A stretch of DNA of 64,000 nt from an uncultured Bacilli bacterium (GTDB taxonomy: Bacteria > Bacillota_I > Bacilli_A > RF39 > UBA660). The notes under the pieces were generated by a model. It saw nothing but the letters and a program-made list of their open reading frames with translations. It was not told the DNA's origin and ran no database searches. Below are positions 3,541 to 45,133 of the stretch, piece after piece. Made by a program: the position numbers and the translations under genes. The DNA lies in NCBI GenBank assembly GCA_947628235.1, contig CANQZC010000004.1, forward strand, positions 12,314 through 76,313, read 5' to 3'. Positions within the stretch are counted from its first letter, which is position 1. The number at the start of each line of letters is the position of its first letter.

Positions 3541-3633
3541 AAAGTCGCAGAAATTACGATTATTTTAAAATCGCGGATTTTGACTACCAAATTGAAGAAA
3601 AGTATGTTATAATTTAGAAAGGATAGAGTCGAC

Positions 3634-13492: not shown

Positions 13493-14467
13493 ATGAATGT
13501 TATCGTTTCTAATAAATATCAATTGATGCTAGAAAATCTAGGAATCGATGTTATTAAAAGTTTAAATGGGGAGTTTGAGGCTGATGAAATTATTAGCACT
13601 TTCCAAAACTTTTTTTATCAAAGAATGATTCTTGATATCACAGCGATTAAGGATTATAAGGATATTAGAAATCTTCAAAAATTATCTATAGCTTTACCTA
13701 TGGAAAAAGTAATTCTTTTACTAGATGATACAGAAGAAAGTACCTCTCCTGCTTATCTATCTAAGTTGATTTCTATGGGAATTTACAATTTTACAAGAAA
13801 TGTTGATGGAATTCAATATTTGTACAACCATCCAAATAGTTATCGTGATGTTGCACAATTCCATCAATTAGACGAAGTAGCTGTTGTTCCACAAATGCCA
13901 AATCAAGTTACACAAAATGTTGTTGTTCAAAATATTGGAACGGGTTATAGTGGAAGAATTATCGGTGTAAAAAATATTACCAAAAGTTCTGGCGCAACTA
14001 CATTAGTATATATGATGTATAATGAATTATCTAAGTACTATAATGTGGCAGCTATTGAAGTTGATAAAACCGATTTTACTTATTTAAAAACGCCAGGTCT
14101 TGTTTCTACTGTTAGTGGAAATGTAAATAGTGAAGTAGGTAAATATCGCGACTGTGATGCTATTATCATCGATGTCAATAACAGTGTTCAAGCAGAAGGA
14201 TTATGTAATGAAATCGTTTATTTGATTGAGCCTTCTGTTATCAAATTAAATCGTTTAACAATGGTAACTCCTCAAGTTTTACGAAATCTAAAGGATAAAA
14301 AGGTTGTATTAAATAAAAGTTTATTAAGTTCAAAAGATGTATTAGATTTTGAATATGAAGCAAGAATTAAAGTATTCTATAATCTTCCGCCTCTTGATGA
14401 ACGTGAAAAGAAAAATAAACCACTCGTTGAATTCTTAAATAAATTAGGTTTTGATCGAGTACAATAA
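13493..14467 (+). CDS. TadZ/CpaE-like protein with a receiver-like N-domain and a degenerate ParA/MinD P-loop
   Basis: The N-terminal 120 or so aa look receiver-like. The sequence GVKNITKSSGATTL occupies the place of the KGGVGKTT P-loop. The position matches that of tadZ. Confidence 0.35.
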   Translation: MNVIVSNKYQLMLENLGIDVIKSLNGEFEADEIISTFQNFFYQRMILDITAIKDYKDIRNLQKLSIALPMEKVILLLDDTEESTSPAYLSKLISMGIYNFTRNVDGIQYLYNHPNSYRDVAQFHQLDEVAVVPQMPNQVTQNVVVQNIGTGYSGRIIGVKNITKSSGATTLVYMMYNELSKYYNVAAIEVDKTDFTYLKTPGLVSTVSGNVNSEVGKYRDCDAIIIDVNNSVQAEGLCNEIVYLIEPSVIKLNRLTMVTPQVLRNLKDKKVVLNKSLLSSKDVLDFEYEARIKVFYNLPPLDEREKKNKPLVEFLNKLGFDRVQ

Positions 14468-14492
14468 CTTTAATATAATCAGAGGTGATATT

Positions 14493-15275
14493 ATGAGAAG
14501 TAAATTAACAAAAACTATTATTTTAATAGTTTTTGTCGTGTTTTTAGGGATAAAAAATGTAAGTGCTCTTACATGTACTTACTCAAGAAATGTTAGTGGT
14601 GAAGAACAAACATATACCATCAATTTAACTACTAAAGCGGTGACTTATACGTATTTTCGTATTCCTATGGCAGAACCTCAGACGACAAATAAGACGATGG
14701 TATTTTCTTTTACTACTTGTCCACCCTCTATTACTGTAACTGGAAACACCATTGCAGACGGCGGTAGTAGTGGAGATTATAAATTAAAAACTCCTACTTC
14801 GTCTTCCTCTTCCTCTTCAAATCTTGAGTATGGCGGAGGTGTTGGTCAGCTAACACACGAATCTAATGTAACTAATTGTGGAAGTATCACAGACATTCCA
14901 AGTGCTATTCCTAAAACAACAAAAATTATTTATATGTTTTTACAAGTTCTTATCCCTGTTATTTTAGTGATTATGGGAATGCTAGATTTAACAAAAGGTG
15001 TTATGTCTCAAAAAGAAGATGAGATAAAAAGAGGACAGCAAACTTTAGTAAAAAGATTGATTGCTGCGGCGATGGTCTTCTTTGTATTTGCACTTGTGAA
15101 AATGCTTGTTAGTTTTGTATCTGATGGTAATACTACTGTCACAGACTGCTTAAATTGCTTTATATCTGGCGAATGCGATGATACTGTTCCTCCTGTTGAA
15201 GGGGAAGAAAGTTCGTCTACTATGGTTCTTGAATGGAATGAAAGTTCAGATGCTCAGATTGCTATGGTAAGTTAG
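14493..15275 (+). CDS. Secreted hairpin-family protein P1 (VirB2/TrbC-like two-helix pilin-like domain) with a larger N-terminal region
   Basis: The ATG at 14493 follows a GAGGTGA RBS. It has a signal peptide and the conserved ...GMLDLTKGVMSQKEDEIKRGQQTLVKRLI... loop between two hydrophobic helices. A CG..I..IP motif and a C-terminal CLNCF complete the pattern. Confidence 0.6.
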   Translation: MRSKLTKTIILIVFVVFLGIKNVSALTCTYSRNVSGEEQTYTINLTTKAVTYTYFRIPMAEPQTTNKTMVFSFTTCPPSITVTGNTIADGGSSGDYKLKTPTSSSSSSSNLEYGGGVGQLTHESNVTNCGSITDIPSAIPKTTKIIYMFLQVLIPVILVIMGMLDLTKGVMSQKEDEIKRGQQTLVKRLIAAAMVFFVFALVKMLVSFVSDGNTTVTDCLNCFISGECDDTVPPVEGEESSSTMVLEWNESSDAQIAMVS

Positions 15276-15285
15276 GAGGACTAAT

Positions 15286-15813
15286 ATGAAAAAATTTTTT
15301 ACGATATTTCTTTTATTAGGAACTCTTTTGATAGTAATTGGAACCAGTCCTGTTCCTGTTTATGCAGATGAAGCTCCAGCATGGCTTAGTGGAGAGAAAG
15401 TTTCTTGTGGCAATATTCAAAATATTCCTAAAAAGGTTCCAGAATTTGTTAGTATGTTTATTTTAATAGCACAAGTAGTAGTACCTGTCTTACTAGTTTT
15501 ATTTGGTATGATAGATTTTGCGAAAGGTGTTATGTCTCAAAAAGAAGATGAAATCAAGAAGGGTCAACAAACTTTTATAAAAAGATTGTTGGTGGGTGCT
15601 ATCGTCTTCTTCGTCGTAGCGCTTGTCAAGATGCTTGTTAGTATTGTAGGAGATACGGATACTAATAAAGAAAATATTATTTCTTGTATCGATTGTTTTG
15701 TTAATGGAGTAGAAAACTGTGGAGGAACATCTTCTGGTGGAGGTGGAGGCGGTAATCCAGACCCAGGAAGAAATCCTACTGTAGATCGTTATCCAACTTA
15801 TGAACAAATTTAA
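15286..15813 (+). CDS. Secreted hairpin-family protein P2 with a Gly-rich C-terminal tail
   Basis: Signal peptide ending VYA; motif GMIDFAKGVMSQKEDEIKKGQQTFIKRLL; SCIDCFVNG. Confidence 0.6.
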   Translation: MKKFFTIFLLLGTLLIVIGTSPVPVYADEAPAWLSGEKVSCGNIQNIPKKVPEFVSMFILIAQVVVPVLLVLFGMIDFAKGVMSQKEDEIKKGQQTFIKRLLVGAIVFFVVALVKMLVSIVGDTDTNKENIISCIDCFVNGVENCGGTSSGGGGGGNPDPGRNPTVDRYPTYEQI

Positions 15814-15867
15814 CTACTTTTCAATTGATAAAAAAAATAGTATAATGACTTTGAAGGAGTGTATGTT

Positions 15868-16266
15868 ATGAAAAAGGAAAATTTAAGAATGCTAAGTTTA
15901 ATGAGCGTACTTTTTGTAGGTCTATTTGTACTGGCATCACCAGTTCATGCTCTTGAATGTGTTGGTGTAACAGTTGATGCTAATATTGTTAGAGTAGTTC
16001 ATTCTGTAATTGTATTAATTCAAATTGTAGCGCCAATCTTACTTGTTATTTTTGGTATGTTAGATTTAGCAAAAGGTGTTATGGCACAAAAAGAAGATGA
16101 AATCAAGAAGGGTCAACAAACTTTTATAAAAAGATTGATTACTGCAGCGATTATTTTCTTCGTTATAGCGCTTGTTAGAATGTTAGTAAGTTTTGTAACC
16201 GGTGATGGTTCTGATAGCGAGATTATGACATGTATTGATGCATTCATCAATGGTGAAAATTCGTAA
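15868..16266 (+). CDS. Secreted hairpin-family protein P3 (minimal pilin-like form)
   Basis: The ATG at 15868 lies 8 nt after GAAGGAG. It has a signal peptide ending VHA. Its motif GMLDLAKGVMAQKEDEIKKGQQTFIKRLI contains a 51-nt tract identical to P2. Confidence 0.6.
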   Translation: MKKENLRMLSLMSVLFVGLFVLASPVHALECVGVTVDANIVRVVHSVIVLIQIVAPILLVIFGMLDLAKGVMAQKEDEIKKGQQTFIKRLITAAIIFFVIALVRMLVSFVTGDGSDSEIMTCIDAFINGENS

Positions 16267-16283
16267 CTAGCAGGAGGTTACTA

Positions 16284-17381
16284 ATGGTAGAAAAATTAAA
16301 ACAACTGGATAAGAAGGTTTATATCATGGGAGGTATTGTGTTAGGAATAATTGTTCTCCTAATCATTCTCTTGGTAGTTATAAAAATTTTATCTGGTCCA
16401 GGCAAAAATTATAGTAAATTAGAAAAAAAATTATCTTCTGCAGCAGAAAGTTATTTAAAAGCTAATCCAGATTCTGTTCCTGCTGATGGGGAAAGTATTG
16501 AATTAGATTCAGCAACTTTAATTTCTGCTGGAAAGTTAAAAGAATTAAAAAAATATGTAGATGATGAGTGCACAGGTCGTGTTTTAGTTAGAAATAACGG
16601 TGGACTAGCCCAGTATTTACCACACTTAGATTGTACAAATTATACCACACAGCATCTTTATGATAAGGTCATTGAAGATAATCTTGTTGTTGATTCTGAA
16701 AATCCATATGAAGGTGGACTATATGAAGTTAACGGAGAATACATTTTCAAAGGGAAAAATGTTAATAACTATGTTTCTTTTGGTACTCTTACATGGAGAA
16801 TCATGAAAATCGATGAAAATGGCAACTTAAGACTTATTAAAACTAGTGCAGAAAAAGCGAAAAAGATATGGGATAATAAGTACAATTCAGATTTAGATAA
16901 AAATTATGGAATCAATGATTATGAAAATAGTTATCTTAGAGAGGTTCTAGACCAAAGTTACAAAGGAGTAACAGAAAAGAATCGTGCTCACATTATTCCA
17001 CATGATGTTTGTGTAGGAAAAAGAGCAAAAAACAATATGACTCTTTCTTATGATATTGATTGTGCAAGTATCTTAGAAAAACAATATATTAGTGTTATTA
17101 ATACTTTAGATTATCCAATGGCCAGTCTAGATGAAAATTGTAAAAAGGTAGGCGATGGTGCTTGTTCTAATTACAATTATCTAAATGGTACAATTAGTAC
17201 TAGTTGGACAAGTATTGGTGTTAGTGATAACTCTTATGAAGTATATGATATCAGTGCTGGTTATGTAAGTACTTTAAGAGCAAGACAAACCGTAAGTTAT
17301 AGTTGGGTTATCTATCTTAGCGGTCAAGAACTATATACAAAGGGTTCTGGAACTGCAGAAGATCCATATGTAATCCAATAG
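16284..17381 (+). CDS. Membrane-anchored extracytoplasmic protein (single N-terminal TM), unknown function; it is inserted within the hairpin-gene array
   Basis: Hydrophobic segment at residues 15-35, then a 330 aa hydrophilic domain containing Cys residues. Confidence 0.4.
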   Translation: MVEKLKQLDKKVYIMGGIVLGIIVLLIILLVVIKILSGPGKNYSKLEKKLSSAAESYLKANPDSVPADGESIELDSATLISAGKLKELKKYVDDECTGRVLVRNNGGLAQYLPHLDCTNYTTQHLYDKVIEDNLVVDSENPYEGGLYEVNGEYIFKGKNVNNYVSFGTLTWRIMKIDENGNLRLIKTSAEKAKKIWDNKYNSDLDKNYGINDYENSYLREVLDQSYKGVTEKNRAHIIPHDVCVGKRAKNNMTLSYDIDCASILEKQYISVINTLDYPMASLDENCKKVGDGACSNYNYLNGTISTSWTSIGVSDNSYEVYDISAGYVSTLRARQTVSYSWVIYLSGQELYTKGSGTAEDPYVIQ

Positions 17382-17387
17382 AGATTT

Positions 17388-17416
17388 ATTGACAAACAAA
17401 AATAGGTATAGTATAA
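17388..17416 (+). promoter_or_regulatory. Consensus sigma-A promoter: TTGACA, 17 nt spacer, TATAAT
   Basis: Perfect hexamers can be read directly. A GAGGAGG RBS lies 6 nt before the P4 ATG. Confidence 0.55.
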
Positions 17417-17441
17417 TTATTATAATTAGAGGAGGAAGAAA

Positions 17442-17831
17442 ATGTTACAAGTTTTAGCAAATATTGATACAAATTTAACTTACACTTGTGGAGACATTGG
17501 AATGAGTTTTAATGGGATGCTTCCATATGTTGTATCTATGATCGTTTTGATTATCAAGATCGTAGTACCAATTTTATTAATTATCTTTGGTATGTTAGAT
17601 TTGGCAAAAGCAGTTATGGCCCAAAAAGAGGATGAGATTAAGAAAGGTCAACAAACTTTCATTAAAAGACTTATTGCTGCTGTTATTGTATTCTTTGTAA
17701 TTACTATTGTTCAAATGATTATTAGTTTCGTATCAAATGATAATGATAGTATTGCAAGTTGCTTTAAATGCTTTGTTAACGGTGATGCTAGTGCATGTAC
17801 ACCAGATTCATCAACACAAGTTGGATTCTAG
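17442..17831 (+). CDS. Hairpin-family protein P4 with no cleavable N-terminal signal peptide; candidate major pilin-like subunit
   Basis: Motif GMLDLAKAVMAQKEDEIKKGQQTFIKRLI; SCFKCFVNG. It has its own consensus promoter upstream and two terminators downstream. Confidence 0.6.
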   Translation: MLQVLANIDTNLTYTCGDIGMSFNGMLPYVVSMIVLIIKIVVPILLIIFGMLDLAKAVMAQKEDEIKKGQQTFIKRLIAAVIVFFVITIVQMIISFVSNDNDSIASCFKCFVNGDASACTPDSSTQVGF

Positions 17832-29867: not shown

Positions 29868-31007
29868 ATGCAATTTCATATGGATTCTGATAATTTCAAA
29901 AATGCTAAAATGAAAGTAGTAACAGGAAGTGAATCTTCCTCCCTATCAAACAATACTCTTTCTAATGTATCAACGACTGAAGTTTATGAAGAGTATGAGG
30001 AAGAAGAAAAACCTAAAGGATTTTTTTCTGGTTTGGTTTATGAACATTTTGGCGAAGAAATAGAAGAGGCAATTCAAATGATTCAAGAATTAGCGCCTCA
30101 AATTGGATTAAACACGGATCATTTAACAGATCAATTAATTTATGATCACATTATCTTTTTCGGTTCTTTAGCGCTTCAACTAAAAGGATTGGATGTCGAA
30201 AATCCAGACGAAGAGAAATTAGCGATTATTCTTTTTGATTTCCTTGCAAATTCAGGTATTTCTTATGAAGAACTAGAAGCAAATTTTACGAATATTACAG
30301 AAGTCATTCAAGAATATTTATCTCCTTTAGCAGAAAAAACTGGTTTAGAGATGAACTTAGATAGAGATCATATTAAAAATCTTTATGATGCATTTTCTAA
30401 GAAGGAAGAGAAGAGGGGAGAAGCAGTTACAGAAGCTATTTTAGATATTTGTCCTGACTTAGCAGATAGCATTTCTGCCAAACTTAGAGAAAATAATATT
30501 TATGTAACTTCTGACTTAATAAAAAAATCTTTACCACCAATTTTTAAAGATGCTTCCTCTTCTATTACTGAAATTAAAAATATTATAGGATTATTTCAAG
30601 GAAATATTTTAGATATGTTGAAAGCGATAGGAAAACTAACTGACTTTTTAGACCTAGGAATAACAGATGTTGGGGTTACGATAGGTGGAACCTTGATGCT
30701 TTTTGGAGGAGATTTACTAGACGATACTTGGACGAGTATACAAGCATGGGGAAATAAAACCATAAATGATGTTAAAAATTTTGGTGCAGAAGTTTTAGAC
30801 TGGGGCGAGCAAGCTATTCAGGATGTTAAAGAATGGGGAGAACAGGCTATTCAAGATGTCAAAGACTGGGGCGAGCAAGCCATTGAAGATGTTAAGGATT
30901 GGGGAGAGCAGACTATAGAAGATGTCACAGTTTGGGGAGTGGAAGCTTGGGAAGATGTAGAAGACTTTTTTTCTGATGCCGGAGACTTTCTTTGCTTTTG
31001 GAATTAA
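29868..31007 (+). CDS. Acidic protein with a C-terminal 11-aa tandem repeat (WGEQAIQDVKD-like) x5; unknown function
   Basis: The ORF is preceded by TGTGATATAAT. Repeat units at 30821..30985 differ at synonymous positions. Confidence 0.45.
   Translation: MQFHMDSDNFKNAKMKVVTGSESSSLSNNTLSNVSTTEVYEEYEEEEKPKGFFSGLVYEHFGEEIEEAIQMIQELAPQIGLNTDHLTDQLIYDHIIFFGSLALQLKGLDVENPDEEKLAIILFDFLANSGISYEELEANFTNITEVIQEYLSPLAEKTGLEMNLDRDHIKNLYDAFSKKEEKRGEAVTEAILDICPDLADSISAKLRENNIYVTSDLIKKSLPPIFKDASSSITEIKNIIGLFQGNILDMLKAIGKLTDFLDLGITDVGVTIGGTLMLFGGDLLDDTWTSIQAWGNKTINDVKNFGAEVLDWGEQAIQDVKEWGEQAIQDVKDWGEQAIEDVKDWGEQTIEDVTVWGVEAWEDVEDFFSDAGDFLCFWN
30821..30985 (+). repeat. Five tandem 33-bp in-frame repeats
   Basis: TGGGGCGAGCAAGCTATTCAGGATGTTAAAGAA recurs with silent substitutions. 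The last unit is degenerate. Confidence 0.7.
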
Positions 31008-31023
31008 GAGGAGGAAAATATAA

Positions 31024-31299
31024 ATGAAAGAAAAATATTTACCATTAGGAACGATAGTATTGCTTAAAGGCGCAAATAAAAGATTAATGATAACAGGATT
31101 TGAAATTGTGAAGTCAAAAGATAAAAAAAGATATGATTATTGTGGATGTTCTTTTCCTGAAGGTCTGATTGATAGTAAAAGCATGTTTGCCTTTAACCAT
31201 GATCAAATTGAAAAAATTTATTATATGGGATATCAAGATGAAGAACAGAAAAAATTTGAAGAATATATTAAAAATAAAGCAAAAAAAGTACAAGAATAG
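31024..31299 (+). CDS. Small cytoplasmic protein, DUF4176-like
   Basis: A PLGTIVLLKG N-terminal motif was recognised from memory of that family. This call is weak. Confidence 0.3.
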   Translation: MKEKYLPLGTIVLLKGANKRLMITGFEIVKSKDKKRYDYCGCSFPEGLIDSKSMFAFNHDQIEKIYYMGYQDEEQKKFEEYIKNKAKKVQE

Positions 31300-33033: not shown

Positions 33034-33540
33034 ATGGAAATAATTAAGGAAAATAAGAAGATGATTATTTTTTTAGTAGTAATCCTTATATTGATTATAG
33101 GAATACTAGTGCTTAGTTTATTTGAAAAATCTGATAGTAGTAATTTGATGGTAAATTGTAGTAGAACTGTTCATTCAAAAACATCAGAAATTACACAGAG
33201 TATAGAAATATATGATTATATTTCTTATAAAACGATGATTCTAAAAATTGTTGTAGGAATAGATCAAGATGTAAATCAGAATATGTTAGAAAATTATCTA
33301 GCGATTATTGAATTTCAAACAAAACAAAAAATACAGTCAGCGGCTGGCGGAGAAATTCCTAAAGATGTGGTAGTTAGTTCAAAAATTGAAGGAAACAAGG
33401 CTATTATTTCTATTGAAAACAAACTTACCGAAGAGAATGCGGTAGAGATGTACCAATTATATGATACGAATTTTTATGAGATGACAAAAGAAGAGATGAA
33501 AAATTATTTTATTGAGGATGGTTTAACATGCGAAAGTTAG
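33034..33540 (+). CDS. Membrane-anchored hypothetical protein
   Basis: An N-terminal TM is followed by a hydrophilic domain. A TGcTATAAT extended -10 lies at 32995..33003. Confidence 0.4.
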   Translation: MEIIKENKKMIIFLVVILILIIGILVLSLFEKSDSSNLMVNCSRTVHSKTSEITQSIEIYDYISYKTMILKIVVGIDQDVNQNMLENYLAIIEFQTKQKIQSAAGGEIPKDVVVSSKIEGNKAIISIENKLTEENAVEMYQLYDTNFYEMTKEEMKNYFIEDGLTCES

Positions 33541-34823
33541 TTGAAAAAAGTTTATTTTTCTTATTAGCATTTGTAATATGCTTTGAAACAGTTTTAGCAG
33601 CACCAGTTTCTTGTGAATATCCACAATTAGATATGACTTTAACATATTATGATGGTCAAGATAAGCCATCAATCAGTTATTCTAATTGGGCACAGTCTGA
33701 TTGGTATGTTAATTTATTAGCTGTAAAACTTGGACAGCATAAATATGCCGAAGATGAAGTTCGTATTGATCAAAACTTATACAGACAATTCCAAGGAGAT
33801 ACTTGTCCTGATAAAATGTATGTTTGTGAATATACAGAGTGGAGTGCTCAATTACCAAGCTTACTTAGTTTAGGACAAGATATCGCCGGTGTTTTAGCGC
33901 TTATTCCGGCTCTTTTTGGGGCTGATACACTTGGATTTTCTGATGAAATGCTAGAAGAAGGTTGGTCTCTTTTTACACTAGGAAAATCTGAATTATATGT
34001 TATGAATTATGAATCTTATGAAAACCATGAATATCGTATCTACGAAGGTGGTCTTGTATCAGATGATTTAGATATGGCTTATATGGAAGGATATGAAGGC
34101 TGTAATGGTGATGGCGGAGGACTTTGGTGGCTGCTAGGAGGAGTTTGTGGTATTCTGTGGTCTGCTATCGATGGAGTTATTGGAGAAACAATAATTGGTG
34201 ATGGAATCGATGTTCTATTTTATAAAAATTTTACTTGTAAAAAAGCGAATTATCAAGGGGAAAATTCTACTGTAGATGTTAACTGCTCTTTTTTGACAAC
34301 AAAAACCCATGAGTATCAAACTTATGTGAGTGAGTATAGCAGTTGCGGAGATGATTCTTGTAGAGCAAATGCGGTTAGTAAGTTAAATAGAAAACAATCA
34401 GAACTTGAAGCTTTGTGCAAAAAAGTTCTTCGAAATTACGAATATAATGAAACTCAAACTGAATGTATTAATAATTGCATTTCTTTGCGTAAGACATTAA
34501 ATAAATATAAAGAAGGAACCGATTTGCATATGGATTTTGAAGATACAGATTCAAATAGTTGCCGATTCTCCGATAGAATGGCAGCATGGTTAATGCGAAT
34601 TGTATCTTGGGTAAGATATATTGTACCTGCTATTATTATCATTTTAACGATTTTAGATTTTATTAAGGCAATTGCTGCTGATAGTGAAGATGAGATTAAA
34701 AAGGTCAGTGGTAGATTTGTAAAACGACTAATTGTCGCAGTCATTATTTTCTTACTTCCACTTATTCTAGAATTTTTACTTGGAATATTTGATATATCAA
34801 CCAATAATTATTGCTTAAAATAG
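33528..34823 (+). CDS. Large secreted Cys-rich protein P6: unique ectodomain fused to a C-terminal hairpin-family (pilin-like) domain
   Basis: Signal peptide ending VLA. The C-terminal 80 aa (WLMRIVSWVRYIVPAIIIILTILDFIKAIAADSEDEIKK...RLIVAVIIFLLP...NNYCLK) match the small hairpin proteins. Confidence 0.6.
   Translation: MRKLVEKSLFFLLAFVICFETVLAAPVSCEYPQLDMTLTYYDGQDKPSISYSNWAQSDWYVNLLAVKLGQHKYAEDEVRIDQNLYRQFQGDTCPDKMYVCEYTEWSAQLPSLLSLGQDIAGVLALIPALFGADTLGFSDEMLEEGWSLFTLGKSELYVMNYESYENHEYRIYEGGLVSDDLDMAYMEGYEGCNGDGGGLWWLLGGVCGILWSAIDGVIGETIIGDGIDVLFYKNFTCKKANYQGENSTVDVNCSFLTTKTHEYQTYVSEYSSCGDDSCRANAVSKLNRKQSELEALCKKVLRNYEYNETQTECINNCISLRKTLNKYKEGTDLHMDFEDTDSNSCRFSDRMAAWLMRIVSWVRYIVPAIIIILTILDFIKAIAADSEDEIKKVSGRFVKRLIVAVIIFLLPLILEFLLGIFDISTNNYCLK
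34596..34823 (+). repeat. Near-identical dispersed repeat: the 3-prime ends of P6 and P7 (second copy at 35962..36189)
   Basis: Aligned by eye, the two copies are about 90 percent identical over about 225 bp. Confidence 0.7.
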
Positions 34824-34848: not shown

Positions 34849-34878
34849 AAATATGATATAATTATGTTAGGTGATGTT

Positions 34879-36189
34879 ATGAAACAAACTCGGATTTATC
34901 TGCTTTTTATTTGCTTTTGCCTCTTTTTTGGGGGGAAAAATGTATTGGCAAAAGAGGTTTCAAAAACTTGTAAGTATACTTATGTAAATGAATTGACAGA
35001 AAATGGTAATACGGATACAGTTGCTGCTAACCGAGGAGGAACTATCACTTTAAGTGTATATACAGATGGTTCCCAAGATGGGCAAGGAAAAAGTAATGGT
35101 ACTTTTTTAGCTGAAAATTTTGGTGGGCATGAAGAAATTTTAAACTGGGGAAAATCAGATAATGATGCTCCTGATATCAAAGGAACTTCTTGCCCAGATT
35201 ATATTGGTGTTATTGTTCAAGGCCTTGGAGATCGTAAGTGGTATGGATTTACCTCTAGTGGTTTATCTAGTTATGGACCTAAAGTTGCTTCTCATGATAA
35301 CAGTAATTCTATGGCAGTTTTAAAAAATGATAGTTTGGAAGATCCAACATATACTTGCTATTATCCTGATGAAAATAATTCTTATTATAGTATTACAGTT
35401 GATACTAATCAAAAGACTTTGACAGCCAAGTCTACTTTAGCAAGTTTAAATATTTTTTACTCAGTAAGTGATCAATTACAAGAGAGTTGGTTCTCTGAGG
35501 AACGAGGAACAGATAAGTGCTTACCTACTGTTGCTTGTTCGACAGATTCATTAACTATTAGTTATTCTTATATTTTTAATGACTCTATGGAAGCAGCTGC
35601 TGCCGGATATAAAAATTGTGAATTACAAAAATGCTCTGGTGATGATTGTGATGAAACGAAAGAGTATTCATGCATTACATATACGAAGTATTTAAATGAT
35701 ATAGATTCTTTATATTCACAAATAAAAAGCGCAACTGGAGATACAGCTAATTTGTATAAACAAGTTCATGATAAAGAAGAAACATTGGCAACCTTATGTC
35801 AAAGTGTCATGGCTAATTATACTTATGCAGAAAACTGTGTAAAAGCTTGTTTACAAATGGAAAAAGATATAAATTCTAGAAAAGAAAAATATGGAATTGA
35901 TGTAATCACGAATCCTACTAATAGTTGCAGCATTTCTGTAAGATTAGCAACATGGTTAATGAGAATTATATCTTGGGTAAGATATATCGTACCTGCTATT
36001 ATTATTATCTTAACAATTCTAGATTTTATTAAAGCTATTGCTGCCGATAGTGAAGATGAAATGAAAAAAGCCAGTGGAAAGTTTGTAAAACGACTAATTG
36101 TTGCAGTCATTATTTTCTTACTTCCACTTATTCTAGAATTCTTACTTGGAATATTTGATATATCAACCAATAATTATTGTTTAAAATAG
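34879..36189 (+). CDS. Large secreted Cys-rich protein P7: a different ectodomain fused to the same C-terminal hairpin domain
   Basis: The ATG at 34879 lies 5 nt after AGGTGA. It has a signal peptide ending VLA. The last 225 or so nt are about 90 percent identical to the 3-prime end of P6. Confidence 0.6.
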   Translation: MKQTRIYLLFICFCLFFGGKNVLAKEVSKTCKYTYVNELTENGNTDTVAANRGGTITLSVYTDGSQDGQGKSNGTFLAENFGGHEEILNWGKSDNDAPDIKGTSCPDYIGVIVQGLGDRKWYGFTSSGLSSYGPKVASHDNSNSMAVLKNDSLEDPTYTCYYPDENNSYYSITVDTNQKTLTAKSTLASLNIFYSVSDQLQESWFSEERGTDKCLPTVACSTDSLTISYSYIFNDSMEAAAAGYKNCELQKCSGDDCDETKEYSCITYTKYLNDIDSLYSQIKSATGDTANLYKQVHDKEETLATLCQSVMANYTYAENCVKACLQMEKDINSRKEKYGIDVITNPTNSCSISVRLATWLMRIISWVRYIVPAIIIILTILDFIKAIAADSEDEMKKASGKFVKRLIVAVIIFLLPLILEFLLGIFDISTNNYCLK

Positions 36190-41653: not shown

Positions 41654-41676
41654 AAAACTCGAAAGAGTTTTTTTTC
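41652..41676 (+). terminator. Rho-independent terminator: AAAAACTC, loop GAAA, GAGTTTTTTTT
   Basis: The hairpin and T-run can be read directly after the spoVG stop. Confidence 0.55.
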
Positions 41677-41720
41677 ATATCTAGAAAACTTGGACATATA
41701 TATAATTAGGAGGAAAAAAT

Positions 41721-42743: not shown

Positions 42744-43295
42744 TTATGCTTTTAATTCTTCTAAGATACTTTTCTTTTCTTTTTGCTCTTCATAGAGTTC
42801 TTTTTTCGTATACTTTTTAAAGAACGCTACAATACGAGAAGGGAACTTTCTCATGAATTTGTTGTAATCCTTTGTAATATCGTTATAATACTTTCGTAAA
42901 GCAACAATTTCTGATTCCGATTCCATCAATAGAATTTGCGTTTTTACATATCCTTCGTTTTTCTTTAAATCTTCGTATTTTTCAACATAAGATTGAAACT
43001 CTGCAATCGCTGGATAGAGTTGTTTATCTAACTCAATATTGGATACACTTTGGGAACGAAGTTGAATAATGGTTGGTAAGATGGTTCCGGTATCTTCAAT
43101 ATTGGTAGTTTCTTTAATAAAATCAACGGATTTATTTAATAAATCAAATCTTTTTCGTAGGACAGAGTCAATGCTTACTTCGGCTTCATTAATACGAATA
43201 AGATATTCTTGAAAATGATTATAATTGAATAAAAAGATTAAAGCGAGAATTCCACTGACTGCTATCACACTTAAAATGATAACTGCTACTGTCAT
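42744..43295 (-). CDS. lemA: LemA family protein
   Basis: An N-terminal TM is followed by a LemA-like helical domain. Confidence 0.5.
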   Translation of the reverse strand: MTVAVIILSVIAVSGILALIFLFNYNHFQEYLIRINEAEVSIDSVLRKRFDLLNKSVDFIKETTNIEDTGTILPTIIQLRSQSVSNIELDKQLYPAIAEFQSYVEKYEDLKKNEGYVKTQILLMESESEIVALRKYYNDITKDYNKFMRKFPSRIVAFFKKYTKKELYEEQKEKKSILEELKA

Positions 43296-43340
43296 ACTAT
43301 CACCATTCTCATTATAGCAAATTTCTTTGTTCTTGACAAC

Positions 43341-43646
43341 TTAGATAGAAGGATAAAAAATTTCGCTCGTATTAATTTCTTCATCAAATTTAATATAGTT
43401 CACATAAATTAATAAGAGTAAATACCAATTTCCAGTAGTGGGATCACTTAAAATAATATGATCTTTTCCAGACTGTTCAATAATACCTTTAAAGACACGG
43501 TCTCGCCATTCTAAGGAGTCCGCAAAAGAAGTATATACTTCCACTTTCTTTCCTTTGTTTAACCGTAAAATGTTTTCTACATATGACTGTTCATTTAAGG
43601 GAGGAGTATTTTGATAGGGAGAAATATTTCCATAATTATTGTTCAT
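43341..43646 (-). CDS. Hypothetical small protein
   Basis: ORF only. Confidence 0.3.
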   Translation of the reverse strand: MNNNYGNISPYQNTPPLNEQSYVENILRLNKGKKVEVYTSFADSLEWRDRVFKGIIEQSGKDHIILSDPTTGNWYLLLLIYVNYIKFDEEINTSEIFYPSI

Positions 43647-43727
43647 AAAATCATCCTTTCTCTTAAAATATATTTTCTAAATGTTAGAAATATGATATAA
43701 TGACCTTAGAATTGTATAGGTGATAAA

Positions 43728-44174
43728 ATGAAAAAGTTCAGTATAGTTTTAGTAATGGTGGCAGTTCTATTACTTTGTCCATCTATGGTACATGCGATTG
43801 ACCCACTTCCTAGTCATACGACATATGTAGCTTGTGGAGATGCGAAGTCTATTCCTCAACCAGTTCCTCAGTTAACTAGTGTGGCATATACTTTAATTAT
43901 TATAGCAGTACCTGTCATTTTAATTGTTTTTAGTATTGTTACTCTGGTAAAGGCGGTTACAGCAGGTTCTCCTGATGAAATTTTAAAAGCGAGAGGTAAA
44001 TTAATTAAGAAGTTTATTGCTGCTGCTATTATTTTCTTTGTAGCAGGAATTACACAGTTTGTAGTTACGAAGGCAGCGGATGATTCCGAAGGAAATAATA
44101 TTGCTTCTTGTATTAGTTGTTTTCTTTATTATGATGGATGTACGGAATCAGAGCCACCAGAGGCTTACCGATAG
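43728..44174 (+). CDS. Orphan secreted hairpin-family protein P5 (divergent pilin-like paralog)
   Basis: Signal peptide ending VHA. ACGDAKSIPQPVP is followed by two hydrophobic helices flanking AGSPDEILKARGKLIKKFI, then SCISCF. The upstream sequence AAATATGATATAAT is shared with P7. Confidence 0.55.
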   Translation: MKKFSIVLVMVAVLLLCPSMVHAIDPLPSHTTYVACGDAKSIPQPVPQLTSVAYTLIIIAVPVILIVFSIVTLVKAVTAGSPDEILKARGKLIKKFIAAAIIFFVAGITQFVVTKAADDSEGNNIASCISCFLYYDGCTESEPPEAYR

Positions 44175-44257
44175 ATTTGACAAAAACAAATTATTTATGA
44201 TACGATTATGGCGTCTTCTTTGGAGGACGCTTTTTTCTATTCTAAAGGAGGTTTCTT

Positions 44258-45133
44258 ATGACAAAAATATTAGTCATTCCCCCACATAAAGAGGATATTT
44301 CTGAGTTACTTTCCAAAGTAGATGGAATTCTCGTTGGAGTGAAAAATTTCTCTAATAATTTTACGGAAATTTCTAAGGAAGAATTAGAAAAGATTACGAA
44401 GGAAGTAAAAAAGGCGAATAAAGAAATTTTTATCTCGTTAAATAAGAATATGCATCATGCTGATTTAGAAGCATTAACAGAACTATTAAAAAAATGTAAT
44501 CAATTAAAAGTAGATGGTGTTTTTTATTATGATGTAGCAGTTTTATCTATCCATCATAAACTATCGTTAGAAATCCCTCTCATTTGGAGTGCGGAACATC
44601 TAACGACGAATGCCTATACGATAGGATATTGGGAAAATTTTGGTATCAGTGGAACTTTTCTATCTAATGAAATTACAATGAAAGAAATTTTAGAGATTCA
44701 TCAAAGTACTAAGACATATACCTTTGTTCAAGTTTTTGGGTACCTACCAATGTATGTTTCTAGACGACTTGCTATTGATAATTATTTAAAGCATTTTCAT
44801 TTAAAACGGGATGCGAAAGAATTTTATCTATGGAAGGAGAATCATACTTATCCCATCTTAGAGAGAGAAAAATCTACAGAAATCTATTCTTCTTTCTTAT
44901 TGAACGCTATTTCAGAATTTTTAGAATATCAAGAAAGTGGAATAGAATATGCGATTATTAGTGGCTTTTTAGTTCCTTATTCATCTTTAGAAGAAGTTAT
45001 TACTTGCTTTCAAGAAGTAACGGAAGAAAATGTCGAAGAGAAGAAACAAAAGATTCAAGAACTGTTCCCTAATACAGGAAATGGATTTTTATATAAAGAA
45101 ACGGTTTATCAGGTGAAGAAAAATGAAAAATAA
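44258..45133 (+). CDS. Peptidase U32 family protein (YrrN-like)
   Basis: Family-level resemblance only. It is adjacent to the second U32 gene and overlaps it. Confidence 0.45.
   Translation: MTKILVIPPHKEDISELLSKVDGILVGVKNFSNNFTEISKEELEKITKEVKKANKEIFISLNKNMHHADLEALTELLKKCNQLKVDGVFYYDVAVLSIHHKLSLEIPLIWSAEHLTTNAYTIGYWENFGISGTFLSNEITMKEILEIHQSTKTYTFVQVFGYLPMYVSRRLAIDNYLKHFHLKRDAKEFYLWKENHTYPILEREKSTEIYSSFLLNAISEFLEYQESGIEYAIISGFLVPYSSLEEVITCFQEVTEENVEEKKQKIQELFPNTGNGFLYKETVYQVKKNEK

What the first reader, a model, noticed from the sequence alone, without database searches (positions are those of the whole stretch)
43676..44174. Orphan hairpin-family paralog embedded in a sporulation and cell-division neighbourhood, sharing a promoter motif with P7
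P5 carries the family hallmarks: a signal peptide, the ACGDAKSIPQPVP motif, two helices, a charged loop and SCISCF. Its loop, however, has diverged (AGSPDEILKARGKLIKKFI). It lies about 8 kb to the right of the block, between lemA and a small minus-strand ORF on one side and the U32 peptidases on the other, near spoVG, yabP, yabQ and divIC. The 14-nt sequence AAATATGATATAAT (an extended -10) appears upstream of both P5 (43682..43698) and P7 (34848..34862), which suggests a shared regulatory module that duplicated along with the gene.
Basis: seen in the sequence. Interest (0 to 1): 0.5.

Follow-up and report, generated by a model that had tools for sequence, protein, structure and literature searches.

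The report
Conserved stand-alone T4SS pilin-like gene
P5 is a real, conserved, separately transcribed member of a two-helix "pilin-like" protein family belonging to the neighbouring type IV secretion cluster. The 14-base sequence it shares with P7 is the ordinary strong promoter of this genome, not a duplicated regulatory module.

Summary
P5 is homologous to six paralogues in the window (phmmer E 1e-22 to 8e-10). Its best Pfam match is PF18895 T4SS_pilin, at 25.0 bits against a cut-off of 26.6.

P5 is an old, fixed gene, not a recent stray copy. Orthologues of 51-64% identity lie between gerQ (the "small minus-strand ORF") and the U32 pair in all 12 related uncultured-Bacilli gut genomes examined. 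They form a clade (194/200 bootstraps) with its own conserved cytoplasmic loop.

TGnTATAAT occurs 16 times in the window, mostly before start codons. Four unrelated promoter pairs also share 14-mers. Nothing flanking the 14-mer is shared, and no P6/P7 orthologue elsewhere carries the exact 14-mer.

At P5 the invariant TATGATATAAT also overlaps, on the other strand, a sigma-E-like -35 for gerQ.

Most likely P5 is a VirB2-like subunit of the chromosomal T4SS with its own promoter. Four conserved extracellular cysteines probably tie its two tails together. Pilus formation is inferred, not shown.

The parts
43728..44174 (+). P5 coding sequence, 148 aa plus stop: a T4SS-associated two-helix hairpin (VirB2-like, pilin-like) protein
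   Evidence: ORF found. phmmer to six window paralogues gives E 8e-22 to 8e-10. PF18895 T4SS_pilin scores 25.0 bits, E 2e-5, covering model positions 7-71 of 71, just below the 26.6 cut-off. Orthologues of 51-64% identity were found in 12 other genomes.
43728..43796 (+). Predicted Sec signal peptide, residues 1-23 (MKK, hydrophobic core, VHA|I)
   Evidence: Hydropathy. V21 and A23 are invariant in the orthologues, giving a V-x-A cleavage motif. Cleavage is inferred, not tested.
43797..43868 (+). Extracellular N-tail, residues 24-47, with the YVACGDAKSIPQPVP motif. Cys36 is near-invariant in the family
   Evidence: The AF2 model has a beta-hairpin at residues 33-43 with pLDDT 86-90.
43869..43952 (+). 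Transmembrane helix 1, residues 48-75. P62 and K75 are invariant
43953..44018 (+). Cytoplasmic charged loop, residues 76-97 (AVTAGSPDEILKARGKLIKKFI): the signature of the P5 orthogroup
   Evidence: 5 K/R against 2 D/E, consistent with the positive-inside rule. The loop is conserved as AGSxD[DE]IxKA[KR]GKLIKKF in orthologues, whereas the wider family has QKEDEIKKGQQxFIKRL. The clade has 194/200 bootstrap support.
44019..44075 (+). Transmembrane helix 2, residues 98-116
44076..44171 (+). Extracellular acidic C-tail, residues 117-148, with Cys128, Cys131 and Cys138 (SCISCF...GC)
   Evidence: The four-cysteine pattern C36/C128/C131/C138 is present in 115 of 121 family members. The cysteine count in the mature protein is even in 115 of 121. 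Two of the 121 have a single cysteine within the hairpin segment (residues 48-116). AF2 gives a helix at 122-134 and a strand at 139-141.
43688..43701 (+). Bases 43691-43701 (TATGATATAAT) form an extended -10 promoter element (TRTGnTATAAT) for P5
   Evidence: Exact match. TATGATATAAT is invariant in 13 species while the neighbouring bases vary. The 14-mer occurs once per related locus, always before the P5 orthologue. The -35 is poor, TTTTCT at 17-nt spacing (read).
43718..43724 (+). Ribosome-binding site AGGTGAT, 3 nt before the ATG
   Evidence: Sequence. Conserved as AGGTGAT or GAGGATGAT in most orthologues.
43341..43646 (-). gerQ (spore coat protein GerQ), divergent neighbour of P5.
   Evidence: PF09671 at 117.9 bits and TIGR02728 at 103.6 bits. 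Adjacent to the P5 orthologue in all 13 genomes.
43667..43695 (-). Putative sigma-E-type promoter of gerQ. The -35 TCATATT (43689-43695, reverse complement of AATATGA inside the 14-mer) is followed by a 14-nt spacer and the -10 AATATATT (43667-43674)
   Evidence: Both blocks are invariant, and there are no indels in the spacer across 13 species. The same pattern, TCATAT-N13-CATATATA, lies upstream of yabP in all species. The sigma-factor assignment is inferred from the B. subtilis consensus and was not tested.
44210..44238 (+). Intrinsic-terminator-like hairpin GGCGTCTTC-TTTG-GAGGACGC plus a T-run, after P5
   Evidence: 9 pairs, 5 of them GC. dG is -13 kcal/mol. The hairpin is sequence-conserved in species where the U32 genes follow directly. 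Where other genes are inserted, P5 has a different terminator of its own.
44177..44206 (+). Promoter-like site TTGACA-18-TACGAT (with TG) for the U32 pair, lying between the P5 stop codon and the hairpin
   Evidence: Conserved.
34849..34862 (+). Second copy of the 14-mer: an extended -10 in front of P7 (SD AGGTGAT at 34870-34876, likely start ATG at 34880)
   Evidence: It follows a terminator-like AT-rich hairpin and T-run after P6.
34880..36189 (+). P7: a large extracellular N-domain with a C-terminal hairpin of the same family
   Evidence: phmmer E 2.6e-10 to P5. PF18895 at 25.4 bits.
33528..34823 (+). P6: paralogue of P7 with the same architecture
   Evidence: phmmer E 7.8e-10. PF18895 at 24.5 bits.
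14451..17831 (+). In-cluster array of four paralogues (14451-15275, 15286-15813, 15859-16266, 17442-17831), directly upstream of the VirB6-like, VirB3/PrgI-position and VirB4-like genes
   Evidence: phmmer E 4.8e-20, 8.2e-22, 2.2e-14 and 2.7e-21. Alignment. T4SS context.

Best explanation
P5 encodes a small envelope protein of the T4SS-associated, VirB2-like hairpin family. It is kept as its own transcription unit 7.5 kb from the chromosomal T4SS/Tad-like cluster (about 8-30 kb in the window).

Proposed mechanism, with each step marked.

1. Inferred: it is transcribed from a near-consensus extended -10 sigma-A promoter (TATGATATAAT, 43691-43701), translated from a strong SD, and ended at the hairpin at 44210-44238.
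2. Inferred: the Sec signal peptide is cut after VHA23. The mature protein sits in the membrane as a helical hairpin with both tails outside and the K-rich loop in the cytoplasm. Independent support for this topology was found: in other species the C-tail of P5-type proteins is fused to extracellular hydrolase domains.
3. Inferred: Cys36 in the N-tail and Cys128/131/138 in the C-tail form two disulfides that staple the two tails into a small cap. This would be a non-covalent-backbone analogue of the head-to-tail cyclisation of TrbC/VirB2 pilins.
4. Inferred: the hairpin is handled by the VirB4-like ATPase and VirB6-like platform of the neighbouring cluster, either as a pilus or channel subunit or as a wall-spanning stalk. 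P5 would be a variant whose distinct cytoplasmic loop and independent promoter uncouple its supply from the operon copies P1-P4.

The 14-mer shared with P7 is simply the strong promoter type this genome uses. At P5 it is doubly constrained, because its reverse complement supplies the -35 of a sigma-E-like promoter for the divergent gerQ gene.
For: Homology to the six paralogues: phmmer E 8e-22 to 8e-10. The alignment has P62, K75, K94, C36 and C128 invariant.

PF18895 T4SS_pilin is the top Pfam hit for P5, P6 and P7 (E 1.5e-5 to 2.8e-5). It covers nearly the whole model and is 100-1000 times better than the next hit.

Paralogues P1-P4 sit directly upstream of a VirB6-like protein (TrbL_4; MMCAP2_0566 and pLS20_p028 families), a VirB4-like ATPase (AAA_10, P-loop_TraG; Mbov_0397) and CHAP and SpoIID/C39 hydrolases. 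A VirD4-like coupling protein is also present (T4SS-DNA_transf, 194.6 bits). The same gene order is seen in unrelated metagenome contigs.

Conservation: orthologues lie between gerQ and the U32 genes in all 13 genomes. 49 of 148 columns are invariant. The orthologues form their own clade with 194/200 support.

Transcription unit: the extended -10 is invariant, there is an SD, and there is a terminator.

Topology: hydropathy and charge. AF2 pLDDT is 85, with the N-tail hairpin and a C-tail strand forming a small sheet. C-terminal fusions to Peptidase_C39_2, GDSL, YkuD and alpha/beta-hydrolase domains occur in P5-type and family proteins.

Disulfides: the four-cysteine pattern is present in 115 of 121 members, the cysteine count is even in 115 of 121, and only two members carry a cysteine within the hairpin segment.

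Generic promoter.

gerQ sigma-E-like promoter overlap.
Against: The PF18895 score is below Pfam's gathering cut-off. Only 20 of 121 family members reach E<=1e-3, and P1-P4 do not hit it at all. Transmembrane hairpins attract spurious matches such as 7tm_1 and DUF621.

No pilus has ever been shown for a T4SS of a classical Gram-positive bacterium (PMC12857230).

The enzyme fusions are equally compatible with a plain membrane anchor.

No expression data exist. The functional link of P5 to the cluster rests on paralogy and co-occurrence, not on operon membership.
Confidence: 0.6

Rival explanations
1. One reading: P5 and P7 share a regulatory module (the 14-mer) that was copied together with the gene, which would imply co-regulation of the orphan with the main locus.
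For: There is an exact 14-nt match at just two places in 64 kb, both directly upstream of family members. AAATATGnTATAAT is also seen before the P6/P7 orthologues in L007 and L008.
Against: The match is the consensus extended -10. Three other pairs of unrelated promoters in the window also share 14-mers. Matches with two or fewer mismatches precede unrelated genes. The shuffle test is not significant: 7 of 100 shuffles reach the observed count. The flanks are unrelated and the spacing to the ATG is 26 nt against 17 nt. The exact 14-mer is absent from the P6/P7 orthologues in all fetched loci. The P5 and P7 hairpins are only about 30% identical, so a neutral non-coding 14-mer could not have survived since the duplication.
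Confidence: 0.04
2. P5-type hairpins are not filament subunits. They are membrane anchors or scaffolds that hold wall-active enzymes or partner proteins at the cell surface next to the T4SS. In this reading, the bare P5 of this genome is an anchor without cargo, or one that recruits cargo non-covalently.
For: C-terminal fusions of P5-type and family hairpins to Peptidase_C39_2, GDSL, YkuD and alpha/beta-hydrolase domains. P1, P6 and P7 carry large extracellular N-domains. No structural match to solved pilins was found.
Against: A plain anchor does not need a near-invariant cytoplasmic loop, a conserved four-cysteine cap, or 4-7 paralogues per genome. The position of the array directly before the VirB6/VirB3/VirB4-like genes is the canonical VirB2 position. 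In solved conjugative pili both termini face outward (established knowledge, Costa et al. 2016), so C-terminal cargo does not exclude polymerisation.
Confidence: 0.25
3. P5 is functionally tied to sporulation rather than to the T4SS. It is kept next to gerQ because the two share one compact control region, and it acts in the mother-cell or spore envelope.
For: The gerQ-P5 adjacency is invariant. The two invariant promoter blocks are held at a fixed distance in 13 species. The P5 -10 element overlaps a sigma-E-like -35 for gerQ.
Against: The P5 promoter is of sigma-A type. P5-type copies also occur away from gerQ (L016). The protein is a clear paralogue of the T4SS array. The overlap is explained by two back-to-back promoters packed into an 81-nt gap.
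Confidence: 0.08
4. P5 is a decaying or functionless leftover of an old duplication.
For: It is unlinked from the cluster and has a diverged loop.
Against: It is intact in 13 genomes with 49 invariant residues. The signal peptide, cysteines, SD and promoter are all conserved. Its divergence between species (51-64% identity) is similar to that of the in-cluster paralogues.
Confidence: 0.02

Closest known systems
VirB2-like pilin arrays of the chromosomal, relaxase-poor T4SS of Patescibacteria (Pfam PF18895 T4SS_pilin; e.g. Southlakia epibionticum), as described in PMC12102498 and PMC12857230
   Same: Both are monoderm MPF-FATA-type T4SSs on the chromosome. Both have several sequence-divergent two-helix pilin-like paralogues near virB4, and both have type-IV-filament (Tad/T4P) genes nearby. 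Among the 47 window ORFs scanned against Pfam, none matched a relaxase or integrase family. PF18895 is the best Pfam hit for P5, P6 and P7.
   Different: The host here is a spore-forming gut Bacilli lineage, not an ultrasmall epibiont. The PF18895 match is sub-threshold, and the array copies P1-P4 do not match at all. This family has a conserved four-cysteine cap, frequent fusions to large extracellular domains or enzymes, and one member (P5) fixed outside the cluster with its own promoter.
VirB2/TrbC/TraA conjugative pilins of Gram-negative T4SS (PF04956)
   Same: Both have a signal peptide followed by two hydrophobic helices joined by a short basic loop, with both termini on the outer side. 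The gene sits directly upstream of virB3/virB4/virB6-type genes (true of P1-P4). The two ends are joined: by cyclisation in TrbC and VirB2, and by an inferred disulfide staple here.
   Different: No sequence hit to PF04956 and no structural hit to solved pilins were found. The joining would be by disulfides rather than a peptide bond. The host is monoderm. P5 itself lies outside any T4SS operon.
Mycoplasma ICE 'Mbov_0395 family pilin-like conjugal transfer protein' (NCBIfam NF045849), followed by Mbov_0396 (VirB6-like) and Mbov_0397 (VirB4)
   Same: The gene order is the same: hairpin, VirB6-like, VirB4. The window's VirB6-like and VirB4-like proteins hit the Mycoplasma ICE models (E 1.7e-6 and 6.9e-15).
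   Different: The hairpins hit NF045849 only at E 0.2-0.3 (P1, P3), and P5 does not hit it at all. The Mycoplasma genes are on mobile ICEs, whereas this cluster is at a fixed chromosomal site between scpAB and rnr in several species.
Gram-positive extended -10 ('-16 region', TRTGnTATAAT) sigma-A promoters (Voskuil & Chambliss 1998; cited from knowledge)
   Same: TATGATATAAT matches the consensus at every specified position. The same element precedes many genes in the window.
   Different: None as a promoter. The special point is the overlap with a sigma-E-like -35 on the opposite strand.

Membership tests
Window hairpin family (P1-P4, P6, P7) | Significant sequence similarity across the hairpin, including the CG...IP N-motif, P in TM1, the K/DE/K loop residues and the C-terminal CxxC | tested here: met
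   phmmer E 8e-22 to 8e-10. C36, P62, K75, K94 and C128 are invariant in 14 sequences.
Pfam PF18895 T4SS_pilin | Score at or above the gathering cut-off of 26.6 bits | tested here: not met
   P5 scores 25.0 bits (E 2e-5), P6 24.5 and P7 25.4. All are the top hit and cover nearly the full model, but all are below the cut-off. Only 20 of 121 family members reach E<=1e-3. This points to remote or borderline homology, not formal membership.
Pfam PF18895 T4SS_pilin | Located in a T4SS gene cluster | tested here: inconclusive
   This is true for paralogues P1-P4, which lie before the VirB6/VirB4-like genes. P5 itself is 7.5 kb outside the cluster, separated by 10 housekeeping and sporulation genes.
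VirB2/TrbC pilins (PF04956) | Sequence match to the family model | tested here: not met
   No PF04956 hit at E<=0.1. The family profile finds no solved pilin chain at E<=10.
VirB2/TrbC pilins (PF04956) | Signal peptide, two TM helices and a short basic loop, with both termini outside | tested here: met
   Hydropathy and charge. AF2 model. Extracellular enzyme fusions at the C-terminus in relatives. These are predictions only.
VirB2/TrbC pilins (PF04956) | Fold match to solved conjugative pilins (TraA, VirB2, TrwL, CedA1) | tested here: inconclusive
VirB2/TrbC pilins (PF04956) | Polymerises into an extracellular pilus, and is processed or cyclised | not testable with these tools
   This needs microscopy and mass spectrometry. 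The only evidence here is the conserved cysteine pattern, which suggests a disulfide tie.
NCBIfam NF045849 Mbov_0395 pilin-like conjugal transfer protein | Score at or above 40 bits | tested here: not met
   P5 has no hit. P1 scores 10.7 bits and P3 11.2 bits.
Extended -10 sigma-A promoter | TGnTATAAT (TRTGnTATAAT in Gram-positives) at a suitable distance upstream of an SD and start codon, conserved in orthologues | tested here: met
   TATGATATAAT lies at 43691-43701, 26 nt before the ATG, and is invariant in 13 species. The transcription start was not mapped.
Sigma-E-type mother-cell promoter (for gerQ) | -35 resembling kmATATT, a spacer of about 14 nt, and a -10 resembling CATACAnT | tested here: inconclusive
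   TCATATT-N14-AATATATT is invariant in 13 species and parallels TCATAT-N13-CATATATA upstream of yabP. The consensus is recalled from the B. subtilis literature, and there are no expression data.

The most novel reading that the evidence does not exclude
P5 is the separately and strongly expressed major subunit of a genuine VirB2-type pilus or stalk. That structure would be built by a chromosomally fixed, apparently relaxase-less T4SS/Tad hybrid in spore-forming gut Bacilli. Its two ends would be tied by disulfides instead of cyclisation, and its C-terminus would be used in sister species to display wall-degrading enzymes along the filament. This would be the first conjugative-type pilus in a classical Gram-positive lineage, and a possible evolutionary source of the Patescibacteria pilin arrays.
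Probability: 0.2. Interest if true: 0.8.

Novelty: new variant of a known kind. Interest (0 to 1): 0.42.

Why it matters
Recent reviews state that Gram-positive T4SSs lack VirB2-type pilins, with Patescibacteria as the single exception (PMC12857230, PMC12102498). This window shows a very large, unnamed family of VirB2-like hairpins tied to monoderm T4SS clusters in Bacilli. The family has 8,929 cluster representatives at E<=1e-3.

P5 shows that one member has been kept for a long time as an independent, strongly promoted gene. That makes it a natural first target for asking whether such systems build a filament. Relevant experiments are antibody or epitope work, knock-out, and mass spectrometry of the disulfide-tied tails.

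For annotation, the result is also a caution. Identical 14-mers around the -10 are background in AT-rich Firmicutes genomes and do not indicate shared regulation.

Tried and rejected

2. The afdb50 fold library was not available.

3. A profile search of the family against PDB sequences gave only chance transmembrane matches.

4. An Rfam scan of 43000-44600 found nothing, apart from a chance PhrS match at 14.8 bits.

5. NCBIfam found no family for P5.

6. Lipoprotein reading of the conserved Cys36 (V-A-C): rejected. The cysteine lies 13 residues after the predicted signal-peptidase I site and about 20 residues after the hydrophobic core. The cysteine inside the signal peptide (C17) is not conserved.

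7. A first bootstrap script timed out. It was redone with a fast neighbour-joining implementation.

8. The scan tool did not list the P5 promoter because its -35 matches only 3 of 6 positions. The promoter is therefore called on the extended -10 and its conservation only.

9. Cysteine-cysteine distances could not be measured, because the model coordinates are not exposed.

10. The taxonomy of the host could not be refined beyond 'uncultured Bacilli bacterium' MAGs from rabbit and mouse gut. One 5-kb contig is labelled Muribaculaceae, probably a binning error.
Full report
**1. What is at the coordinates**

The ORF is 43728..44174 on the + strand and encodes 148 aa.
- ACGDAKSIPQPVP at residues 35-47.
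- AGSPDEILKARGKLIKKFI at residues 79-97.
- SCISCF at residues 127-132.

Hydropathy shows three hydrophobic segments: a signal peptide at residues 1-23 (MKK, hydrophobic core, VHA|I) and two long helices. The loop between the helices has 5 K/R against 2 D/E. Both tails are acidic, and all mature cysteines lie in the tails.

An AlphaFold2 model built on 121 homologues has mean pLDDT 85. It shows:
- a beta-hairpin at residues 33-43;
- helices at 45-79 and 82-116;
- a helix at 122-134;
- a strand at 139-141.

This amounts to a transmembrane hairpin capped by the two tails.

To the left of P5 lie, in order:
- rnr;
- two PGA_cap genes;
- smpB;
- spoVG;
- yabP;
- a yabQ-sized ORF with no Pfam hit;
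- divIC;
- lemA (-);
- a small minus-strand ORF that is the spore-coat gene gerQ (PF09671, 118 bits; TIGR02728, 104 bits).

To the right lie two U32-family genes and greA.

**2. Family membership**

phmmer with P5 against all window ORFs finds six paralogues. Four small ones sit in an array:

| ORF | E-value |
|---|---|
| 14451-15275 | 4.8e-20 |
| 15286-15813 | 8.2e-22 |
| 15859-16266 | 2.2e-14 |
| 17442-17831 | 2.7e-21 |

The other two are the C-terminal hairpins of two large proteins: P6 (33528-34823, E 7.8e-10) and P7 (E 2.6e-10).

Identity to P5 is 25-37%. With orthologues added, C36, P62, K75, K94 and C128 are invariant.

The window between scpA/scpB and rnr is a T4SS plus Tad-like cluster. 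Its components are:
- an RcpC/CpaB-like protein;
- a T2SSE ATPase and TadB/C-sized membrane proteins;
- the hairpin array;
- a VirB6-like protein (TrbL_4; MMCAP2_0566, pLS20_p028 and Mbov_0396 models);
- a small VirB3-position protein;
- a VirB4-like ATPase (AAA_10, P-loop_TraG; N-terminal part hits Mbov_0397 at E 7e-15);
- a CHAP hydrolase;
- a SpoIID/C39-like hydrolase;
- a VirD4-like coupling protein (T4SS-DNA_transf, 194.6 bits).

Among the 47 window ORFs scanned against Pfam, none matched a relaxase or integrase family.

The same architecture recurs on unrelated metagenome contigs.

For P5, P6 and P7 the best Pfam hit is PF18895 T4SS_pilin, at 24.5-25.4 bits and E about 2e-5 over nearly the whole model. 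This is under the 26.6-bit cut-off. P1-P4 do not hit it. Only 20 of 121 family members reach E<=1e-3. I therefore treat the family as VirB2-like on the basis of position, topology and a borderline profile match, not as a formal Pfam member.

Fold and PDB sequence searches are non-diagnostic.

**3. P5 is an old, fixed gene**

A protein search finds eight close relatives of P5 at 54-63% identity. A scan of one genome per species finds 12 loci in 11 MAGs. Ten are labelled 'uncultured Bacilli bacterium', from rabbit and mouse gut; the eleventh (L009) is a 5-kb contig labelled Muribaculaceae, probably a binning error. One further genome came from an exact look-up.

In the window and in all 12 other genomes, the P5 orthologue lies divergently next to gerQ and upstream of the U32 pair. 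The neighbours are 78-92% identical (GerQ) and 70-84% identical (second U32 gene). P5 is 51-64% identical. This is similar to the between-species divergence of P1, P2 and P4.

Among nine sequences, 49 of 148 columns are invariant. These include the V-x-A cleavage motif, the YV.CG..GIP.P.P motif, the loop and C128/C131.

The 'diverged' loop is the conserved signature of this orthogroup: AGSxD[DE]IxKA[KR]GKLIKKF. The wider family has an almost invariant QKEDEIKKGQQxFIKRL. The P5 type forms a clade with 194/200 bootstrap support in a neighbour-joining analysis.

The overall family is very large and unnamed:
- 1,411 proteins at E<=1e-3 among the 8,000 candidates scored;
- 8,929 representatives at 50% identity with E<=1e-3, of which 728 have E<=1e-30.

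**4. The 14-mer**

AAATATGATATAAT occurs exactly at 43688..43701 and 34849..34862. The match is not a duplicated module, for four reasons.

(a) Bases 4-14, TATGATATAAT, are the Gram-positive extended -10 (TRTGnTATAAT; recalled from Voskuil & Chambliss 1998). TGnTATAAT occurs 13 times on the + strand and 3 times on the - strand of the window. Almost every occurrence is 15-45 nt before an SD and start codon of unrelated genes, including lemA and the VirB6-like gene.

(b) Among those 13 plus-strand sites, four separate pairs share an exact 14-mer spanning the -10. Sites with two or fewer mismatches precede unrelated genes at 3600, 50317 and 59217. The shuffle test is not significant: 7 of 100 shuffles reach the observed count.

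(c) Nothing outside the 14-mer is similar. The geometry also differs. In P5 the -10 is followed by 26 nt before the ATG. In P7 it is followed by 17 nt, with SD AGGTGAT at 34870-34876 and the likely start at 34880 rather than 34864.

(d) In the 21 fetched loci, the exact 14-mer occurs once per locus and always before the P5 orthologue. The P6/P7 orthologues carry aaaataTG[T/G]TATAAT or ttttTGTTATAAT. The P5 and P6/P7 orthogroups both exist in the sister genomes, so the duplication predates the clade. The perfect identity in this one genome is therefore convergence on a consensus.

**5. Why the motif is invariant at P5**

An alignment of the 81-nt gerQ-P5 gap from 13 species shows two invariant blocks separated by a variable spacer of constant length. 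The blocks are ATCATCCTTTCT..T.AAATATATT and TATGATATAAT.

Read on the minus strand, the region is TCATATT-N14-AATATATT, followed by the gerQ SD. The yabP gene is sigma-E dependent in B. subtilis (from knowledge). In all these genomes it is preceded by TCATAT-N13-CATATATA. TGATATAAT on the plus strand is the P5 extended -10.

The two divergent promoters overlap by about 7 bp. This explains the absolute conservation. It also raises the possibility, which is only inferred, that sigma-A and sigma-E holoenzymes compete at this site.

Downstream of P5, a hairpin and T-run at 44210-44238 end the unit. Genomes with genes inserted after P5 have a different terminator there.

**6. Mechanistic reading**

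The conserved features fit a Sec-exported hairpin with an N-out, C-out topology.

First, the cysteine pattern. 115 of 121 family members have exactly the C36/C128/C131/C138 pattern. The cysteine count in the mature protein is even in 115 of 121. Only two members carry a cysteine within the hairpin segment. The two-cysteine paralogues (P3, P6, P7) keep one cysteine in each tail. This argues for a disulfide joining the N-tail to the C-tail, plus a local one. It is functionally reminiscent of the head-to-tail cyclisation of TrbC and VirB2.

Second, the C-terminal fusions. P5-type hairpins in other species carry extracellular domains after S/T/N/G-rich linkers:
- L016 8883-9938 has a Peptidase_C39_2 domain.
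- L016 9953-11029 has a GDSL domain.
- The syntenic orthologues in L014 and L017 are 369 and 397 aa long, with unassigned C-terminal domains.

The wider family adds GDSL, YkuD and alpha/beta-hydrolase fusions. This independently supports an outside-facing C-terminus. It also links the family to cell-wall remodelling.

Third, promoter and position. The array copies occupy the canonical virB2 position, whereas P5 has a near-consensus promoter of its own.

My best reading (confidence 0.6) is a VirB2-like subunit of the neighbouring T4SS whose supply is uncoupled from the operon. The main rival (0.25) is a non-polymerising membrane anchor or scaffold.

**7. Comparison with known systems and novelty**

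The closest described systems are the VirB2-like pilin arrays of the chromosomal T4SS of Patescibacteria. Current reviews call these the only VirB2-type proteins in Gram-positive-type T4SSs (PMC12102498, PMC12857230). The next closest is the pilin-like protein of Mycoplasma ICEs (NCBIfam NF045849; not significantly matched here).

P5 is therefore a new variant of a known kind. Its distinguishing features are:
- a distinct orthogroup;
- a position unlinked from the cluster;
- its own promoter;
- four cysteines;
- a spore-forming Bacilli host.

The specific claim that made the finding stand out, a shared promoter module, turns out to be ordinary. The gene itself is a reasonable entry point to an understudied system. 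That is the basis for the moderate interest score.

Noticed in passing
L004 6609-9633; L009 1569-3886; L013 10533-12865: In three sister genomes, arrays of 3-4 tandem gene pairs are inserted exactly between the P5 orthologue and the U32 genes. Each pair is a roughly 104-aa WXG100-like protein (W.G.DA..F) and a 122-138-aa partner. The window has none. Either the site is a hotspot for small secreted-protein genes, or there is a functional link to P5.
   Followed up: partly
L016 8883-9938 and 9953-11029; L014 501-1610; L017 9905-11098: P5-type hairpins are fused through S/T/N/G-rich linkers to C-terminal extracellular domains: Peptidase_C39_2, GDSL, and two unassigned domains. Other family members carry GDSL, YkuD or alpha/beta-hydrolase domains.
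   Followed up: partly
window 44177-44238 (and L007, L008, L010-L012, L014, L015, L018): A conserved promoter (TTGACA-17/18-TGnTAnnAT) is followed within about 3 nt by a sequence-conserved hairpin, GCGTCTTC....GAAGACGC, and a T-run, upstream of the U32 (TrhP-like) gene pair. The U32 transcript would start at or inside the stem. The element may act as the P5 terminator, as a leader or attenuator, or both. Rfam has no match.
   Followed up: partly
window 43647-43727, and upstream of yabP at 41654-41720: gerQ and yabP share a sigma-E-like promoter pattern, TCATAT(T)-N13/14-(C/A)ATATAT, which is conserved in 11-13 species. The gerQ -35 overlaps the P5 -10 on the opposite strand.
   Followed up: yes
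window 1939-36189: The whole T4SS/Tad-like cluster lies between scpA/scpB and rnr. No relaxase or integrase family matched among the ORFs scanned. In sister genomes, the VirD4-like gene and the P6/P7 orthologues, which mark the rnr-proximal end of the cluster, lie at the same chromosomal position upstream of rnr. This suggests a domesticated, vertically inherited system rather than an ICE.
   Followed up: partly
window 29868-31299: Directly after the VirD4-like gene there are two genes. One encodes a 379-aa acidic protein with WGEQAI[QE]DVK repeats. The other is a DUF4176 gene (97 bits), a family usually associated with type VII secretion.
   Followed up: no
window 34854, 43319(-), 57593 and others; L007 237 and 1348; L008 1368: Many genes have the compact layout TGnTATAAT-N6-(A)GGTGAT-N3-ATG. 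Their 5' UTRs would be only about 10-12 nt long and would begin at the Shine-Dalgarno sequence. This looks like a genome-wide style.
   Followed up: no
L017 11112-11558; L016 8883-11029: Extra P5-type copies exist in some genomes. L017 has a second copy right after the syntenic one. Another MAG has two tandem copies at an unrelated locus between pflB-like and nifJ-like genes.
   Followed up: no
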